From an uncultured virus (IMG/VR IMGVR_UViG_3300001335_000606) (Duplodnaviria > Heunggongvirae > Uroviricota > Caudoviricetes): a stretch of 64,000 nucleotides of DNA. A program made the translations under genes and the position numbers. The DNA lies in IMG/VR virus record IMGVR_UViG_3300001335_000606; one strand, written 5' to 3'. Below the pieces are notes generated by a model that did not search any database, was not told the origin of the DNA, and worked only from the letters and a program-made list of their open reading frames with translations. This document shows positions 14,039-63,080 of this stretch, piece after piece (position 1 is the stretch's first letter; each line of letters starts with the position of its first letter).

Positions 14039-15061
14039 TTAAAACAATTCCTTCTTATTTCTTCCCATCCAACTAGAAACCTGTTTCACTAAAAGTTTGT
14101 TGAATTGTTTTTCTTCAACTTCATTATTGAAATTTAATTTATTTTCGTTAGTTAATTCTTCAATAATATCTTCGCACATTAAGTTCATAATTTTCCCAAA
14201 ATCAGTAATACTATATTCCCCGATTTTAGAAATAATATTATTAAATCGTGGAGTGCAAATTAAAACAGATGCATCTCCTAATATCTTTAATAGATCATCT
14301 GATATCTTTTCTTTAGGTTTTTTAATTTTAGTTCCACTATTTTCCTGGAATTTTTCATTTTTATCTTTCAGAATTACTCTTGACATTCCCATAAAAGCAT
14401 GATTGTGAGGTTTAATAACATGACCTTCTCTAATATTCCCCTCTACTTCCTTTTCCATGCCAAATTCTTTCCAAATTTCAGAAGGATCCGCATTATGTTC
14501 CATAGACCAATTAATACACTCTTGTAGTATTCCACTAAAAATAATGGGAATAACTGGAATATTATTTTCTTTACAAAGAAAAACCACTTCTGGATGTGGA
14601 AGATAAATAAATTCCCCATCTTTAAAATTAACGCGGATATCAAAAACAATAAATTCCGTTCTATTGGAATATGCGATTTTACCTTGAATTTTAGTAGCAC
14701 CTTCTTCGGTTTTCATTCCAGGATAAAATCCACCACAAAGTTCACCAAAGACTGTATAAGATTCTATACCAGTAAAATGCAAAGTTTGCAAGAATTCAAG
14801 AATTTTGAACCCAAATGTAGGGAAATCATACCTTTGCATAATAGATTGAAAATTATTAAATTTTTCTTCTGCATCTAAAAATGCACCTCTTCTAGCTGGT
14901 TTTATATCATTACTATTAAAATCAAAGGTTATTGAAAAATTACTTCCATCTACTTTTTCTGTCACATACCAAACATCTAAAAGCAATTTTGGATTATTCA
15001 TAATCTTTTCCAAAATTTTATTTGTCATATTTTCTATACTATTATATTTTTTATGTTCCAT
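14039..15061 (-). CDS. rnl2: RNA ligase, Rnl2 family
   Basis: Nucleotidyltransferase motifs EKVDGSNFS, VFGELCGG, FIVFDI, EGHVIKP, ILKDKN. Confidence 0.9.
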   Translation of the reverse strand: MEHKKYNSIENMTNKILEKIMNNPKLLLDVWYVTEKVDGSNFSITFDFNSNDIKPARRGAFLDAEEKFNNFQSIMQRYDFPTFGFKILEFLQTLHFTGIESYTVFGELCGGFYPGMKTEEGATKIQGKIAYSNRTEFIVFDIRVNFKDGEFIYLPHPEVVFLCKENNIPVIPIIFSGILQECINWSMEHNADPSEIWKEFGMEKEVEGNIREGHVIKPHNHAFMGMSRVILKDKNEKFQENSGTKIKKPKEKISDDLLKILGDASVLICTPRFNNIISKIGEYSITDFGKIMNLMCEDIIEELTNENKLNFNNEVEEKQFNKLLVKQVSSWMGRNKKELF

Positions 15062-16759
15062 TTTTCACCTCGGTAATTAATTCCATTTCCTACATATTGG
15101 TAAAATTACTATTATTTTCTTTTGTAGTTTCATAAAATGAGGATCTACGATCCGCAATAGACAACCTTGCTCTGTCAATCAAACCGTATTCATACTCTAA
15201 CATCTCCATCCAATTTGCTACAGGTACATAATTGCGATGGTACTGGTCAATGATAAACTTTAAACGATCTATAAGTATTTCATAGTCCTCAATTTCTGAC
15301 TTTAAACGCTCCACACGCAAATCTGTTAGTCGTTGGGCTTCTTCTGCAACACCCTTAACAAGTTCGGCAAGGGTAGTGTCTTTCTCATCTTTATTAGACA
15401 TTTTATTCTCCTATCATTTTGATTAGTTTTTCTTGATCGCTAATAATCCAAATCTGATGCCAGTATTTGGGGATTTTTTTGAAAAGATAAGCAAGCTGCT
15501 TATCCGACAGAAAATGCTTTTCTTCATATTGACTTGCAAGAGATGAAAGAAAATGTGCATCAACACCCGTGAACCCTACTCCATTATAATACTTGGTGTT
15601 TTTATCATCTCGTTCATCCCAGGTTTGATTATCATAAATTCTAGCAAGTGCATGAAGTGCCCACATTTTGTTTGTGGAGAGCATGCCTTTAAGGAACTCT
15701 TTAATCTTTTCTTGCGAAACCTTCATGATTGTAACCTCTTTTTTTCTTTACTACTATTATAACCAAATTCTAAAAAAAGATGGTTAAAAAAAATTATTTA
15801 AGAGGTTTTTTAATCTCATCCATAAATGCATTTAGAGGATCGTATTCCTTATTTAATGGTTGGTTTTTAGGAATAAAGATTGTTCCGTCTTTTGCTACAT
15901 AGTATGACAATTCTGGAATATACAACCTAATTACGTCCCTTAAAACCTCATTCAACATATTACTATTATATTCCATATCTTCCGATGAGCATGACAATAA
16001 TACTTGAGTTGTGTTAGGCAATCCAAGATTGTTTATCGTTTTGTTATCTGTGGAATATAAACCCTCTACTTGAATACAAGAACCGTCTTCCATTGTTAAA
16101 GATAAGGTGTCATAAGAATGACCCTTTTTATCCCAAGGATTGGACATAAAAAATGATACCGCTCCGGTTCCTTCACTTATTCCAAAGAATACGTCATTCT
16201 TCTTAAGGTACCTAAAATCTTTAGGGTCATGTTTAACTTCTACAACAATAGTTGCGAAATTTGCCCTCCCATTAAACCATCTGACGCTAGCTCCTAAAAT
16301 TTCATCAAAATATTTTTTATTCATATTCTATTCCTATTATAAATTTAAAGTTTATCCTATAATATTCCACGCACCAGGACTTTGTATTGCGGGATATCCA
16401 GCATTAACCAGTGTGGTATACATTTTCTGAGCTTGGGGAATATTCCAAGAATGAACTATAATACTTACATTTTTACGATAATTATTTTCAATTATCCATT
16501 TAACAACATTCATACCACAATTATCCTATTCCCATTCCATTTGTTTTCCACCCAAATCGTGGTCAAGGAAGATGTAATCATAATCGGGAGTTTGTGCCAA
16601 TTTTTCAAGTGCCTCATCAGCAGTGTATACATAATCCACGTACTTAGCTCCCAAATGATTCTACAATCTATCCTTAAATACCTTCATGCGTGCCAAGTCG
16701 TCATCTAATACTAATATCTTCATAATAATTTCCTTGACCACGATATCCCATTATAAAGT

Positions 16760-17293
16760 TTAAGATACTACACGATATTTTCCTCTCGAAACTTTCTTAA
16801 TGTAGCGGCCTTCTCTTACGGTGGGGCGACGGAGGTAACTTCCATTGTTCATTGATTCTTCCCCATAAAGGGCTGCACTCCAGAAATGGAGAGGAGTATT
16901 TTCACTGTACCCTCTAATAGCATTAATTTCATGCTGCAGATCCGAGAAAGTGAACATTTTGTGCCCATACTTTTTTAACAGAGCATCAATCAATTTACTC
17001 TTGCTCATTGTTCCACGAGGCTTGGGAATGTAGGAAATCATATATTTCCCCCTTGATACTCTCTCCAAAAATCGGTTATCTTTAGCAGTGGGTCTACAAA
17101 AATAACCACTGTTAGGATCTTTACTTCCACCATGACCTGTTGTTTCGTATAAGGCATAAGACCAAATCCCAATTCCATGTTTAGTCGTTGAATACCCTGT
17201 TAATTCTCGAATAACCTTTTCGATATCACGATAACGGAAGGTTGATGTTCCATGCTTCTTTTGCAATGTGTCAAGTAATTGTGTTTTTGTCAT
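16760..17293 (-). CDS. Hypothetical protein with two tandem internal repeats (possible winged-helix pair)
   Basis: Two ~85-aa halves, MTKTQLLDTLQKKHG...VSRGKY and MSKSKLIDALLKKYG...VSRGKY. Confidence 0.6.
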   Translation of the reverse strand: MTKTQLLDTLQKKHGTSTFRYRDIEKVIRELTGYSTTKHGIGIWSYALYETTGHGGSKDPNSGYFCRPTAKDNRFLERVSRGKYMISYIPKPRGTMSKSKLIDALLKKYGHKMFTFSDLQHEINAIRGYSENTPLHFWSAALYGEESMNNGSYLRRPTVREGRYIKKVSRGKYRVVS

Positions 17294-60894: not shown

Positions 60895-61647
60895 TTAATT
60901 TATTAATTCTATCTATACAAAACCTAACTCATGTGATATTTTAATCACCTTATATTTTGAATTTCTAGGAAACAATAATTCGTTTTCCCCTCCTCCAATA
61001 AATATTGCATTGGATCCTTTTTTCGCATTTATTTTTACCATATATGCTTTTTCACCTCTTGCAAAATTAAAGGCATCATAAATATTGGGGCTTGTGCTAG
61101 TATAACCTTGCTATTGAAATATTTCACCCTATTTGGGTATAAACGAAGGATCGGATATTCCTCTATAAACAGAAACATCATGTTCTAATGTATTTTTCTA
61201 AAATACCTTATCAAGAGTTTGCACAATCTAATCAAAACCTTTCTTTTTTCCTTCGTTGGTTCTCAAATATTTATTAATATTCTTGTACTACTAACTGGTG
61301 TAAATATCAATAATATCGGACTATTTTTCAGTATAATTAGTATTAAATTTTTCCAGTTCTTTACGCTATATATACTACGAAGATTTTTTATTTAGTTTTT
61401 TAACATAATCCTATTGTTTTTTTCTATTAAATTTAGAAAACTTTCCACTTATTAAATCTTGAGTATATTTTGTATCATGATATAGCTATTTATCAAACAA
61501 TGCTTTAGCTTTTTTATAAACCTTGCTTGATGTATCATAGCTTAATGCTGTGGACACCTTTATCTAGTTCCCAGTTTCAGGGTTTACTATTGTACTATCT
61601 AGAACCTTTTGTTTTTTATCGCTCTAAATAAGTGATATTATTTTCAT
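60895..61647 (-). CDS. ADP-ribosyltransferase (VIP2/C3-like, R-S-E), TAG-recoded
   Basis: MKIISLI* leader; YTS**YKNINKYLR, VYRGI, GYTSTS, GENELLFPRN. Confidence 0.82.
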
Positions 61648-62057
61648 ATCTATTTTTTCAAAAGTTCCTTATTTCATATATGTTATTATGTCCTGAAACA
61701 ACATATGAGGGTTGTGTTTCGAAGAAGTCCGAACTGGCACAGATTTAATTCGTTTTACAATCCTTGACATTTCTTTCAGTTGTTCGGGATTTAACTTCAC
61801 ATCGTATTTCTCAGGCAAGGATTTCCCTGAAAATTCAAAATACGTGTCGGATAAAGAATTCCCTTTTTTCAAGTGGGCTAAAATTTCCGAACCTAGATTA
61901 AGCATGAATTTTTTTACATCAGTTTTAACCGCTTCGGAAACATCCACAGATCTGTAAACCTCTTTCAAGAAGGATAGTAGATAAGTTTTATCCATTTTTT
62001 TGTTCCTTTGTTTATATTCTACTTATATTATAACTTAAAATTTGAAAATAATTCTTT

Positions 62058-63080
62058 TTAATTTTGAAATCTCTAATTAATAATCTAATAATCAATGGCT
62101 TGAACTCCATATTTACGACGTACACCCATTTTCTTTATTCCATTTTTCTTTCTTAAAAAGATCTTTCTATATTTGCTAAACTAACAAAAACAATTCTGAA
62201 TATTCGACAATGAAAGATTTCTATAAGAAGCAGGTAAGTCGTACATTAACTATTCAAACCCTGTATGCTAATACTCACGCAACCATTTGTCTAAATTGTC
62301 TTTTACATAATAAACAAATTTGTATCTTTTCTTTCTTGGTATATTGGGGCAAAGATAATCTACACCTGCTAATGCTCCATTACCTAAATATACAAGTTCA
62401 TTCTAAGTTATTGCTGTCTAAGGACAATAAGTAATATCAACATAAATTTGATAGGCTAAAAAGTTTCCAATACCTTGCTGATTAGAAATTGCTTTAAACA
62501 CCTGTTCAGCATTATTGCTTTCTAATCCTTCCTTGAATGTCTAAAATTCTCTTGAATGATAAAATTTCCACATTCTGTAAAAGGGCATAAATACAATAGG
62601 GGTATCTTTATCATCACCTACATGCTTTCCCAAAACTCCACTATTCATATATGCCCCTCTATGCAATTTAGCATTCTACTAAATAAATGGAGAATAATAG
62701 TCCATTATTTCTTTAAAATCTTTCTTAAGAAGGGATTCTTTTATTGGAAATTTAAACCTTAAGAAGGTCGCAGGTTGATTAAATATTCTGAACCAAAAAC
62801 AATTACAAGCTTTTTCATATATGTTTAACTAGTCATTATAACAAATATGTTTCAATACAAATTTTGTGACCCTATCATGCAATCTTCTTACATTTGTAAA
62901 TGAATATGTTTGTAATATGGGATCATTCGTCCAAGGCGGGTCTAATTTTTTTATATCTTTCTTCAAATGTATTTTATATCGTTCGACAATCCAATATAAA
63001 AACATTTTCAATGCCTACTAATCGAGATTCTACTAAATTAAAGATAATATGTCTGCATATTTTTCCGTCACATTAATCAA
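62058..63080 (-). CDS. 5-hmdU DNA kinase / aGPT-Pplase1 family (DNA hypermodification), TAG-recoded
   Basis: WIVERYKIH, PPWTNDPIL..Y.FTNVRR..DR, FRIFN, GIGNFLAYQI.VD, NIQNCFC*FSKY; TTG start approximate. Confidence 0.85.

What the first reader, a model, noticed from the sequence alone, without database searches (positions are those of the whole stretch)
14039..63080. TAG use is partitioned by gene function, suggesting a staged genetic-code switch
Seen: long Glu-rich genes for translation and RNA handling (gltX 455 aa, DUF2828 ~490 aa, rnl2 340 aa, def, HD protein) and most promoter-proximal ORFans contain no in-frame TAG. The DNA-modification enzymes, ADPRTs, endonucleases and 47.3-52.1 kb genes each carry several, sometimes TAG-TAG. 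Inference: TAG-free genes can be read in the host's standard code and install the new code, which then licenses middle/late genes, paralleling reports for TAG->Gln phages. Here it seems to gate DNA-modification enzymes too.
Basis: partly seen in the sequence, partly recalled or inferred. Interest (0 to 1): 0.75.

Follow-up and report, generated by a model that had tools for sequence, protein, structure and literature searches.

The report
Phage reads TAG as glutamate, gene-selectively
A large uncultured water phage spells glutamate with the stop codon TAG in about a third of its genes but keeps TAG out of the genes behind its early-type promoters and out of its own glutamate-charging enzyme, so the TAG-rich genes can probably be finished only after the phage installs its own code.

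Summary
Observation confirmed. Of 92 minus-strand genes of 75 codons or more, 59 have no in-frame TAG and 21 have 3-17. A uniform null gives 16.4 TAG-free genes. A two-class model fits far better (TAG is 0.9% vs 39% of Glu-type codons).

TAG means glutamate, not the glutamine of published recoded phages. In alignments to related phages, 98 of 220 residues opposite TAG are Glu and 9 are Gln. The log-likelihood for Glu beats Gln by 151. Relatives write the catalytic ExE glutamates of an ADP-ribosyltransferase as TAG.

The tRNA(CUA) is Glu-like. It sits in a TAG-free operon with a bacterial-type GluRS whose C-terminal domain is sequence-divergent. This linkage holds in 6 of 6 related loci with enough flank.

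A consensus promoter motif precedes 17 of 65 TAG-poor genes and 0 of 24 TAG-rich ones.

The staged switch is therefore well supported by sequence, but no timing data exist. The concept itself is already published for TAG-to-Gln and TGA-to-Trp phages. The Glu assignment and the dedicated GluRS are the new parts. Unchecked notes of this scan report TAG=Glu on other (gut and rumen) phage DNA.

The parts
56853..56927 (-). tRNA with anticodon CUA (reads UAG), Glu-type
   Evidence: Found by ARAGORN and Rfam tRNA at 51.9 bits. Its closest tRNA in the window is tRNA-Glu(CUC), at 70% identity with the same G1.U72 acceptor start. In the family of 8 sequences, 12 of 21 pairs show compensatory changes.
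58080..59447 (-). gltX, bacterial-type glutamyl-tRNA synthetase, TAG-free
   Evidence: NCBIfam TIGR00464 scores 324.2 bits against a cut-off of 289.95. Pfam PF00749 only; no PF19269. The AlphaFold model has pLDDT 90.9 and TM 0.76 to 3afh and 1j09. It has 0 TAG over 29 Glu codons.
55095..56630 (-). DUF2828/DUF7788 protein (PHROG 'RNA-binding protein'), TAG-free
   Evidence: Pfam and PHROG hits. It has 0 TAG over 38 Glu codons here and 0 TAG in 8 of 8 relatives.
57177..57809 (-). HD phosphohydrolase-like protein, TAG-free here only
   Evidence: PHROG 28876. Of 15 relatives, 13 carry 1-7 TAGs.
60857..60869 (-). Consensus promoter-like site heading the TAG-free gene string that holds gltX and tRNA(CUA)
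   Evidence: One mismatch to the motif TTTGGTTATAATA. The genes downstream as far as 55095 carry one TAG in total.
62026..62038 (-). Promoter-like site 31 nt before TAG-free 61669-61995, which is followed after 21 nt by the TAG-rich ADPRT
14039..15061 (-). Rnl2-type RNA ligase, TAG-free
   Evidence: Pfam RNA_ligase and T4_Rnl2_C. The ortholog in L095 is also TAG-free.
42483..42920 (-). Peptide deformylase, TAG-free
   Evidence: Pfam Pep_deformylase, E=1.5e-40.
62058..63080 (-). 5-hmdU DNA kinase (HMUDK), 15 TAG
   Evidence: Pfam PF18723 scores 170.7 bits with TAG=E and 165.1 with TAG=Q. Six of 6 relatives carry TAG: 11-12 in the four full-length copies, 6 and 3 in two fragments.
63077..63469 (-). 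130-aa protein of unknown function, 8 TAG
60895..61647 (-). ADP-ribosyltransferase (Alt-like), 14 TAG
   Evidence: Pfam ADPrib_exo_Tox. Its ExE glutamates are GAA here and TAG in L075 and L081.
47270..52076 (-). String of TAG-rich genes, with one TAG-free ORF at 50863-51162, ending at a strong terminator-like hairpin (46850-46819)
   Evidence: 51168-52076 is weakly ART-like (21.1 bits against a cut-off of 22.3). 49169-50683 has an HExxH-type motif whose Glu is TAG (translation).
43084..43989 (-). DUF559-type homing endonuclease, 17 TAG
   Evidence: DUF559 scores 25.7 bits with TAG=E, 23.1 with Q and 19.5 with X.
44914..45654 (-). NUMOD3/DUF559 endonuclease, 9 TAG
41960..42391 (-). 143-aa protein with an HExxH-type motif whose Glu is TAG, 7 TAG
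   Evidence: Translation. Weak SprT-like hit.
22657..28680 (-). DNA and nucleotide modification genes, all TAG-rich: MTase-like, dCMP deaminase, cytidylyltransferase, HAD/kinase-like, glycosyltransferase. Three TAG-free genes interrupt them at 24570-25665.
29549..29625 (-). tRNA-Glu(CUC), closest relative of the CUA tRNA
31710..31786 (-). tRNA-Glu(UUC)
52293..52638 (-). Phage tmRNA; its tag frame ends in TAA
   Evidence: A tmRNA is also present downstream of the DUF2828 gene in L084 and L095.

Best explanation
The window belongs to a large uncultured phage (contig up to about 184 kb) that decodes UAG as glutamate. It does so with its own Glu-type tRNA(CUA), presumably charged by its own bacterial-type GluRS, whose anticodon-binding domain keeps the fold but has diverged in sequence.

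The genes fall into two classes.
- About 70% avoid TAG. This class holds every gene directly behind the phage's sigma-70-like consensus promoters, the gene string that carries GluRS and tRNA(CUA), and RNA-repair genes. In relatives it also holds an anti-defence gene.
- About 30% write roughly 39% of their glutamates as TAG, with the first TAG within 45 codons. This class holds DNA-hypermodification and nucleotide-metabolism enzymes, ADP-ribosyltransferases, homing endonucleases and HExxH-motif proteins.

In a host that reads TAG as stop, the second class cannot be completed until the phage pair has accumulated. Its translation is therefore licensed by the first class.

Shown by sequence: the two classes, TAG=Glu, the tRNA-GluRS linkage and the promoter association. 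Inferred: the host's standard code, charging of tRNA(CUA) by the phage GluRS, the order in time, and whether the delay is adaptive.
For: Two classes:
- 59 of 92 genes are TAG-free against a null mean of 16.4; mixture delta-BIC is 258.

TAG=Glu:
- Of 220 residues opposite TAG in 74 ortholog alignments, 98 are E and 9 are Q. The log-likelihood puts E ahead of K by 139.5 and ahead of Q by 151.3. The residue profile opposite TAG matches that opposite Glu.
- At codon level TAG faces GAA 67 times, GAG 10, CAA 6 and CAG 1.
- The ADPRT ExE glutamates are TAG in L075 and L081.
- Glu is the most depleted residue in TAG-rich genes (4.97 vs 7.71%), while TAG makes up 3.57% of codons. Gln+TAG would be 6.9% against 2.2% in TAG-free genes.
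- Pfam bit scores are higher with TAG=E than with TAG=Q in 9 of 10 top families, summing to 575.9 vs 553.9.

tRNA:
- It is closest to tRNA-Glu(CUC).
- The family keeps G1.U72 in 8 of 8, U11-A24 in 6 of 8 and U13.G22 in 6 of 8, and 12 of 21 pairs covary.

GluRS:
- It passes the TIGR00464 cut-off and has the full GluRS fold.
- Its nearest relatives, about 33 proteins at 39-54% identity (most over at least 93% of the query), lack the precomputed PF19269 domain that cellular GluRS carry.

Linkage:
- A tRNA(CUA) lies downstream of the GluRS in 8 of 39 metagenome loci, and in 6 of 6 clade loci with more than 6 kb of downstream sequence. It is in 0 of the 60 scanned of 74 IMG/VR GluRS loci.

Promoters:
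- The motif has 38 matches against 9.8 expected.
- 17 of 65 TAG-poor genes and 0 of 24 TAG-rich genes lie within 100 nt of a site. Median distance is 856 vs 2306 nt.

Conservation in relatives:
- GluRS has 0 TAG in the aligned region in 12 of 13 clade loci whose C-terminal domain aligns; L086 has one, at the ORF's penultimate codon.
- The DUF2828 protein is TAG-free in 8 of 8. HMUDK (6 of 6) and ADPRT (2 of 2) carry TAG.
- RlaP, Gad1, one MTase and one radical-SAM gene are TAG-free. ADDT, amidoligase, GIY-YIG-like endonucleases and ThyX are TAG-bearing.

TAG as an early stop:
- 4 of 9 singleton TAGs in TAG-poor genes lie in the last 11% of the ORF (p=0.012).
- The GluRS ORF of L086 has TAG as its penultimate codon, one codon before the TAA/TGA stop.
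Against: - There are no expression or time-course data, and no RNA run is listed.
- The host and its genetic code are unknown.
- No release factor or RF1 antagonist was recognised in the window.
- The classes are interleaved (runs test z=-1.37). Several TAG-rich genes lie only 379-833 nt behind an early-type promoter with no terminator-like site found between them. Transcription timing may therefore not differ, and the gate would have to act on translation alone.
- The TAG status of the HD and KTSC genes is not conserved.
- SAM-lyase-like and DruA-like genes of L095 carry TAG.
- No structural or lysis gene was identified in the window, so the label 'late' is untested.
- Twelve genes with 1-2 TAGs are intermediate.
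- The E-over-Q margin from distant Pfam profiles is only 22 bits, and Q scores higher for dCMP deaminase.
- The relatives are phylogenetically related, so the tallies are not independent events.
Confidence: 0.65

Rival explanations
1. Permissive drift without a regulatory role. TAG is simply tolerated in genes that are expressed when the suppressor pair is abundant, and is purged from genes expressed earlier. The split would then be a passive footprint of expression time rather than a timer under selection.
For: TAGs are spread evenly along genes (KS p=0.64). The TAG status of the HD and KTSC genes flips among relatives. The classes are interleaved.
Against: TAG reaches 39% of Glu-type codons in the TAG-rich class, which is high for a codon that synonymous mutation can reach only from the rarer Glu codon GAG (per-gene GAA and GAG counts). 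TAG is enriched over standard Glu codons in the first fifth of genes (47/191 vs 39/275, Fisher p=0.005). Even this model needs the staged decoding itself.
Confidence: 0.2
2. The host itself reads UAG as Glu, or lacks RF1. The phage pair only supplements it, and the split reflects codon adaptation.
For: The host is unknown. Unchecked notes of this scan mention gut Clostridia with in-frame TAG.
Against: 59 of 92 genes avoid TAG completely, among them 17 of the 18 promoter-proximal genes; the 18th has a single TAG. GluRS is TAG-free across the clade. A few TAG-poor genes appear to end at TAG. The phage carries its own tRNA and synthetase.
Confidence: 0.05
3. The split reflects gene origin. TAG-free genes would be recent imports from standard-code donors, and TAG-rich genes would circulate only among TAG=Glu phages.
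For: TAG-free genes are shorter (147 vs 231 codons) and slightly richer in GC (33.3 vs 31.1%). Many lack any family match. The homing endonucleases, which are mobile, are TAG-rich.
Against: TAG-free GluRS, DUF2828 and rnl2 are syntenic and conserved in relatives at 43-56% identity. TAG-free genes sit behind the phage's own repeated promoter motif. The GC difference is small.
Confidence: 0.07
4. TAG is glutamine after all. The phage GluRS would be non-discriminating, and the host GatCAB would amidate Glu-tRNA(CUA).
For: The best structural and sequence match is the non-discriminating GluRS of T. maritima. The source pipeline translated TAG as Q (P0001).
Against: Q faces TAG in only 9 of 220 cases and E in 98. 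Catalytic ExE glutamates are written as TAG. Gln+TAG would triple the Gln content. The tRNA has a Glu-type D-arm and G1.U72, unlike the phage tRNA-Gln with A1-U72.
Confidence: 0.03

Closest known systems
Alternatively coded phages with TAG read as Gln (genetic code 15: crAss-like, Lak and others). Sources: Borges et al. preprint 10.1101/2021.08.26.457843, passages read; Peters et al. PMC9523058, abstract in listing only; Lak paper PMC8346664, passages read.
   Same: In-frame TAG in conserved genes. A phage tRNA(CUA). Only part of the genes are recoded. The published model has standard-code early genes that enable later recoded ones. Homing endonucleases are preferentially recoded.
   Different: The residue is Glu, not Gln. 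Borges et al. state that they saw only TAG-to-Gln and TGA-to-Trp in phages whose code differs from the host's. The phage brings its own synthetase. TAG density is very high (39% of Glu-type codons in recoded genes). The recoded set seen here is DNA-modification and nucleotide genes rather than recognised structural or lysis genes.
The 'code change module' of TGA-to-Trp Jade phages (suppressor tRNA, TrpRS and RF1 written in standard code upstream of the lysis cassette). Source: Borges et al..
   Same: An aminoacyl-tRNA synthetase and a suppressor tRNA are encoded together in standard-code-compatible genes.
   Different: The codon and amino acid differ. No release factor was found. No lysis cassette was seen next to the module. 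The GluRS belongs to a separate clade with a divergent C-terminal domain.
Bacterial glutamyl-tRNA synthetase (NCBIfam TIGR00464; structures 3afh, 1j09, 4gri)
   Same: It passes the family cut-off. It has HIGH-like and KMSKS-like motifs and a four-Cys cluster. The full-length fold matches at TM 0.76. hhalign aligns the whole length with cellular GluRS.
   Different: There is no Pfam PF19269 match. The C-terminal 155 aa find only one other representative at E<=1e-10 among 1.84 billion proteins. The gene is linked to a tRNA(CUA), not to tRNA-Glu(UUC).
Eukaryotic codes with UAG=Glu (ciliates). Sources: PMC11687900, search listing only. NCBI table 30 is recalled, not checked.
   Same: UAG is assigned to glutamate.
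   Different: Those are nuclear, genome-wide codes of eukaryotes. Here a virus-borne pair acts on a subset of genes inside a presumably standard-code cell.
Earlier unchecked notes of this scan on gut and rumen phages reading TAG as Glu (e1-5954662, e1-5954678, e1-5750912, e1-5951819)
   Same: A Glu-type suppressor tRNA, TAG where relatives have Glu, and uneven TAG use across genes.
   Different: They concern other genomes and habitats. None of the notes shown mentions a phage GluRS, and a look-up for one found nothing.

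Membership tests
Stop-codon-recoded (alternatively coded) phages | In-frame stop codons inside conserved protein families that become full length on read-through | tested here: met
   HMUDK, ADPRT, dCMP deaminase, DUF559, FAD-dependent protein and cytidylyltransferase all match Pfam across their TAGs.
Stop-codon-recoded (alternatively coded) phages | Phage-encoded suppressor tRNA for the recoded codon | tested here: met
   tRNA(CUA) at 56853-56927, and in 8 related loci.
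Stop-codon-recoded (alternatively coded) phages | Only part of the genes are recoded, and the code-change genes are written in standard code | tested here: met
   59 of 92 genes are TAG-free. GluRS is TAG-free here and across the clade.
Stop-codon-recoded (alternatively coded) phages | Recoded codon concentrated in late, structural or lysis genes | tested here: inconclusive
   No structural or lysis gene was recognised in the window. The rest of the contig is not held.
Stop-codon-recoded (alternatively coded) phages | Phage release factor (RF2 for TAG recoding) in some members | tested here: not met
   No release-factor family appears among the Pfam, PHROG or NCBIfam hits of the window's genes. 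This feature is optional in the published clades.
Genetic code 15 (TAG = Gln) | TAG aligns with glutamine in homologs | tested here: not met
   Q faces TAG in 9 of 220 cases and E in 98. The log-likelihood for Q is 151 below that for E.
Bacterial GluRS (TIGR00464) | Score above the curated cut-off over the full length | tested here: met
   324.2 bits against 289.95; residues 6-443 on model positions 2-465 of 470.
Bacterial GluRS (TIGR00464) | Anticodon-binding domain recognisable as Pfam PF19269 | tested here: not met
   No PF19269 hit at E<=1e-3, and none precomputed for the clade. The fold and a profile-profile alignment are nevertheless retained.
Bacterial GluRS (TIGR00464) | Charges tRNA with glutamate; here tRNA(CUA) specifically | not testable with these tools
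   Inferred from the linkage and from TAG=Glu.
tRNA-Glu type | Glu-like body: U11-A24, U13.G22, a four-base variable loop, and an acceptor stem like the phage's own tRNA-Glu. The E. coli identity elements are recalled, not checked in a call. | tested here: met
   Family alignment and pair counts. The window's own copy keeps U11-A24 but has C13-G22. Its nearest tRNA in the window is tRNA-Glu(CUC).

The most novel reading that the evidence does not exclude
A clade of large aquatic phages runs a genetic code not described for any virus or prokaryote in the literature searched: UAG=Glu. It is installed by a natural, self-contained GluRS/tRNA(CUA) pair whose synthetase has a remodelled anticodon-binding domain. 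Within one infection UAG would be read two ways. It would be a stop for a few early genes, which keep a back-up stop a few codons on. It would be glutamate for about a third of the genes, including catalytic residues, which makes the pair a translational licence for DNA hypermodification, ADP-ribosylation and homing-endonuclease genes.
Probability: 0.5. Interest if true: 0.85.

Novelty: new variant of a known kind. Interest (0 to 1): 0.7.

Why it matters
- It would add a third stop-codon reassignment (UAG to Glu) to the two accepted for phages that differ from their hosts. It would also show that a phage can bring the synthetase needed to make an otherwise poorly chargeable suppressor work.
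- Annotation pipelines that assume TAG=Gln mistranslate these genomes. The public translation of this window's HMUDK has Q at 11 of 11 covered TAG sites. In relatives the affected sites include catalytic glutamates.
- A natural GluRS/tRNA(CUA) pair is a candidate orthogonal pair for amber suppression with an acidic residue.
- The fine-grained interleaving of TAG-free and TAG-rich genes behind shared early-type promoters offers a testable case of timing set by translation rather than by transcription.

Tried and rejected
Structural and lysis genes could therefore not be examined.
- Close relatives: none in INPHARED and none in IMG/VR with single-protein queries. The IMG/VR alignment scan returned only canonical GluRS loci, which served as a control.
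- 49169-50683: only one homolog found and no family.
- C-terminal 155 aa of GluRS against 1.84 billion representatives: 4 hits at E<=0.001, so the search says nothing about clade size.
- Sequencing runs: no RNA holder is listed. The laid contigs show no variants at any position, so no population-level TAG/GAA polymorphism could be read.
- Generic -35/-10 scan: not above chance, 102 sites against 104 expected.
- Promoter-like hits inside the GluRS 3' end of the window and relatives: rejected as coding for the conserved G-Y-N-N-K motif.
- Naive coding density: it does not separate TAG-sense (83.4%) from TAA-sense (84.0%) in this AT-rich DNA.
- Mapping the residue that reads anticodon position 36: the T. 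thermophilus GluRS aligns only to residue 332, so no mapping was possible.
- Literature: no report of UAG=Glu in a phage or of a phage GluRS paired with a suppressor tRNA in searches. Supplements (for example Table S2 of the Borges preprint) were not seen and could list such synthetases.

Full report
**What the window is.** All confident genes lie on the minus strand, and GC is about 33%. ARAGORN finds 35 tRNAs, a tmRNA and one tRNA with anticodon CUA at 56853-56927. Rfam confirms them. Reading TAG as sense opens long ORFs that match known families across their TAGs. These include 5-hmdU DNA kinase, an ADP-ribosyltransferase, dCMP deaminase, DUF559 endonucleases, a cytidylyltransferase and an FAD-dependent protein. 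The window's GluRS is recorded on contigs of up to 184,376 bp. The DNA is found unchanged in contigs of four aquatic or freshwater metagenome runs from two studies, which may include the source. No whole genome is held.

- I called genes as TAA/TGA-bounded ORFs, scored them with a codon model, and trimmed starts against upstream genes and tRNAs.
- Of 92 genes of 75 codons or more, 59 have no in-frame TAG, 12 have 1-2 and 21 have 3-17.
- Allocating the 207 TAGs at random over the 1275 Glu-type codons gives a mean of 16.4 TAG-free genes (maximum 29 in 20,000 trials).
- A two-class binomial mixture (70% of genes at 0.9% TAG, 30% at 39%) beats one class by delta-BIC 258.
- GC differs only slightly (33.3 vs 31.1%; Spearman -0.26), so composition does not explain the split.
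There are eight TAG-TAG doublets.
- The pattern continues outside the given coordinates, at 926-3422.
- Two of the TAG-rich ORFs overlap (2918-3268 and 3138-3422), so one may be spurious.

**What TAG means.** Five lines of evidence point to glutamate.
1. Composition. Glu is the residue most depleted in TAG-rich genes (4.97% vs 7.71%), while TAG supplies 3.57% of codons. If TAG were Gln, Gln would be 6.9% against 2.2% in TAG-free genes.
2. Orthologs from related phages, fetched with a clade-specific alignment.
   - In 74 pairwise alignments at 40% identity or more, the 220 residues facing a TAG are E 98, K 18, N 15, D 15, P 12, S 11, H 10 and Q 9, plus smaller counts for others.
   - This profile matches the profile facing ordinary Glu (E 0.45, Q 0.04, K 0.08, D 0.07 vs E 0.42, Q 0.04, K 0.12, D 0.09).
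   - The log-likelihood for Glu exceeds Lys by 139.5 and Gln by 151.3.
   - These pairs share ancestry and are not independent, but the margin is large.
3. Catalytic sites.
   - The two glutamates of the ADPRT ExE motif are GAA here and TAG in L075 and L081.
   - In the window, the Glu of two HExxH-type motifs (49169-50683 and 41960-42391) and the conserved Glu before the DG of both DUF559 endonucleases are TAG (translations).
   - The motif definitions come from general knowledge, not from a call.
4. Distant profiles. Pfam scores are higher with TAG=E than with TAG=Q in 9 of 10 top-family comparisons (sum 575.9 vs 553.9 bits). dCMP deaminase is the exception.
5. PDB alignments put E at several conserved positions, for example the GvETR-like site of the FAD-dependent protein and a site just before the HAE motif of T4 dCMP deaminase.

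The public database entry for this window's HMUDK shows Q at all 11 TAG sites it covers, so the source used code 15.

**The machinery.**
- *The tRNA.* The CUA tRNA is most like the window's tRNA-Glu(CUC), at 70% identity with the same G1.U72 C-rich acceptor stem. It is unlike the phage tRNA-Gln. Eight family members fold into a cloverleaf in which 12 of 21 pairs show compensatory changes. G1.U72 is kept in 8 of 8, and U11-A24 and U13.G22 in 6 of 8 each. The window's own copy has C13-G22. These features and the four-base variable loop are those I recall as E. coli GluRS identity elements; I did not check this in a paper.
- *The synthetase.* About 1.2 kb upstream in the same direction lies a TAG-free gltX. 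It passes the NCBIfam equivalog cut-off for bacterial GluRS (324.2 vs 289.95 bits). Its model (pLDDT 90.9) superposes over its full length on bacterial GluRS structures (TM 0.76 to 3afh and 1j09).
- *Its divergent C-terminus.* The C-terminal domain is divergent in sequence. It has no PF19269 match. About 33 nearest relatives (39-54% identity, most over at least 93% of the query, on contigs of up to 262 kb) also lack that domain in the precomputed annotation. Cellular GluRS carry it and match only about 65% of the query. The last 155 residues find one other representative at E<=1e-10 among 1.84 billion. Profile-profile comparison still aligns the whole length.
- *Linkage across relatives.* A tRNA(CUA) lies 0.9-7.4 kb downstream of the GluRS in 8 of 39 related metagenome loci. 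These 8 are among the 13 loci whose C-terminal domain aligns at 40% identity or more. All 6 such loci with more than 6 kb of downstream sequence have it. None of the 60 scanned of 74 IMG/VR loci with canonical GluRS has one.
- *What remains inferred.* That the phage GluRS charges this tRNA is an inference from linkage and from the code.

**Is the split tied to expression class?**
- A repeated motif, TTTGGTTATAATA (an extended -10 with a T-tract upstream), occurs 38 times at up to 2 mismatches against 9.8 expected. Eleven perfect copies lie on the coding strand.
- Twenty-one intergenic sites sit mostly 12-35 nt before start codons that have a Shine-Dalgarno-like sequence.
- Seventeen of 65 TAG-poor genes but 0 of 24 TAG-rich genes start within 100 nt of such a site (Fisher p=0.0046). 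Median distance to the nearest upstream site is 856 vs 2306 nt (p=0.0002).
- The site at 60857 heads a 6-kb string with a single TAG in total: small ORFs, gltX, a 100-aa ORF, HD, tRNA(CUA) and the DUF2828 protein.
- In relatives, 3 of 3 ORFs behind such sites are TAG-free.
- The classes are interleaved rather than blocked (runs test z=-1.37).
- Several TAG-rich genes follow a TAG-free gene directly. For example, the ADPRT lies 21 nt after 61669-61995, and no terminator-like site lies between them. If these genes are co-transcribed, any delay must act at translation. This step is inferred.

**Is the split conserved?** Partly.
- GluRS has no TAG in the aligned region in the clade, with one exception. 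The L086 ORF has TAG as its penultimate codon, one codon before the TAA/TGA stop, and the database protein P0027 ends exactly at that TAG.
- The DUF2828 protein is TAG-free in 8 of 8 relatives, and rnl2 in 1 of 1.
- HMUDK (6 of 6), ADPRT (2 of 2) and the 130-aa neighbour (3 of 3) carry TAG.
- TAG-free genes in relatives also include RlaP (RNA repair), Gad1 (anti-Gabija), one DNA methylase and one radical-SAM gene.
- TAG-bearing genes include ADDT, an amidoligase, P-loop proteins, GIY-YIG-like endonucleases (11-20 TAGs), ThyX, a SAM-lyase-like gene and a DruA-like gene.
- Against a clean functional rule, the HD protein is TAG-free here but carries 1-7 TAGs in 13 of 15 relatives. KTSC is TAG-free here and in 1 of 6 relatives.

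**Dual reading of TAG.** No TAA/TGA-bounded gene needs TAG as its stop. However, 4 of the 9 single TAGs in TAG-poor genes lie in the last 11% of the ORF (binomial p=0.012). For 41319-41636 the extension past the TAG runs further into tRNA-Lys. This fits a few early genes ending at TAG under the host's code, with a back-up stop nearby. In TAG-rich genes the first TAG lies within 45 codons in 21 of 21 cases. TAG is also enriched over GAA/GAG in the first fifth of the gene (47/191 vs 39/275, p=0.005).

**Comparison with what is known.** The staged model is published. In it, standard-code early genes, among them a suppressor tRNA, an aaRS and a release factor, enable recoded later genes. I read passages of the Borges et al. 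preprint. It also states that only TAG-to-Gln and TGA-to-Trp were seen in phages whose code differs from the host's, and that phage synthetases for suppressors are rare. The Lak paper notes occasional alignment of TAG with E but concludes Q (passages). A 2026 jumbo-phage survey, Cook et al. 2024 and a 2026 k-mer code screen do not report UAG=Glu in phages (passages). Searches found no such report. Supplements were not seen. Unchecked notes of this scan do report TAG=Glu in gut and rumen phages on other DNA. None of the notes shown mentions a phage GluRS.

**Verdict.** The reading as a staged code switch is well supported at the sequence level but unproven in time, and as a concept it is not new. 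What is new relative to the literature searched is the Glu assignment, the conserved GluRS-tRNA(CUA) pair with a remodelled anticodon-binding domain, and the very dense, gene-selective use of TAG in DNA-modification, ADP-ribosylation and endonuclease genes.

Noticed in passing
window 22020-22620 (-): A gap of about 600 nt without an ORF lies directly behind a promoter-like site (22625-22637). It folds far better than shuffles (z=-5.05, 0 of 20 shuffles as good) and has no Rfam match at E<=0.1. It is a candidate structured RNA.
   Followed up: partly
window 28720-28800 (-): A tRNA-like stretch whose 3' half is nearly identical to that of tRNA-Glu(CUC). Its 5' acceptor strand does not pair with the 3' strand, and neither ARAGORN nor Rfam calls it. 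It is probably a decayed or chimeric tRNA.
   Followed up: partly
window 52293-52638 (-); L084 16282-16636; L095 16260-16616: A phage tmRNA with short tags (GETQLKAA here) whose tag frame ends in TAA. A tmRNA also lies a few kb downstream of the DUF2828 gene in two relatives. It might rescue ribosomes stalled or released at UAG.
   Followed up: partly
window 55095-56630 (-): The DUF2828/DUF7788 protein (PHROG 'RNA-binding protein') is TAG-free in 8 of 8 relatives and always lies between the GluRS and the tmRNA region. It may belong to the code-change module.
   Followed up: partly
window 41890-42000 (-): Rfam calls a tRNA 111 nt long (45.5 bits) that ARAGORN does not report. It may contain an intron, and it overlaps the 3' end of ORF 41960-42391.
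   Followed up: no
window 62058-63080; L084 1577-4784; L094 828-4102: Genes for thymidine hypermodification: HMUDK here, and ADDT, an amidoligase and P-loop proteins in relatives. This suggests the phage DNA carries a modified thymine.
   Followed up: partly
L081 13042-14265; L075 19688-20362: A Gabija anti-defence Gad1 homolog (E=2.5e-61) with no TAG among 35 Glu codons, next to TAG-rich GIY-YIG-like endonucleases.
   Followed up: no
window 58235-58247 and the 3' ends of GluRS in L075, L081, L084, L094: Promoter-like hits inside gltX coincide with the codons for the conserved G-Y-N-N-K motif. They are most likely coding coincidences, not promoters.
   Followed up: yes
protein P0001 (public translation of 62058-63080): The source database translated this gene with TAG=Gln and started it 25 codons late, so 11 of 11 covered TAG sites read Q.
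   Followed up: yes
L095 9374-10822: This relative's GluRS aligns with the window's only to residue 312. No tRNA(CUA) lies within 9.5 kb downstream, yet neighbouring genes carry TAG. It may have a variant C-terminal domain, or the tRNA may sit elsewhere.
   Followed up: no
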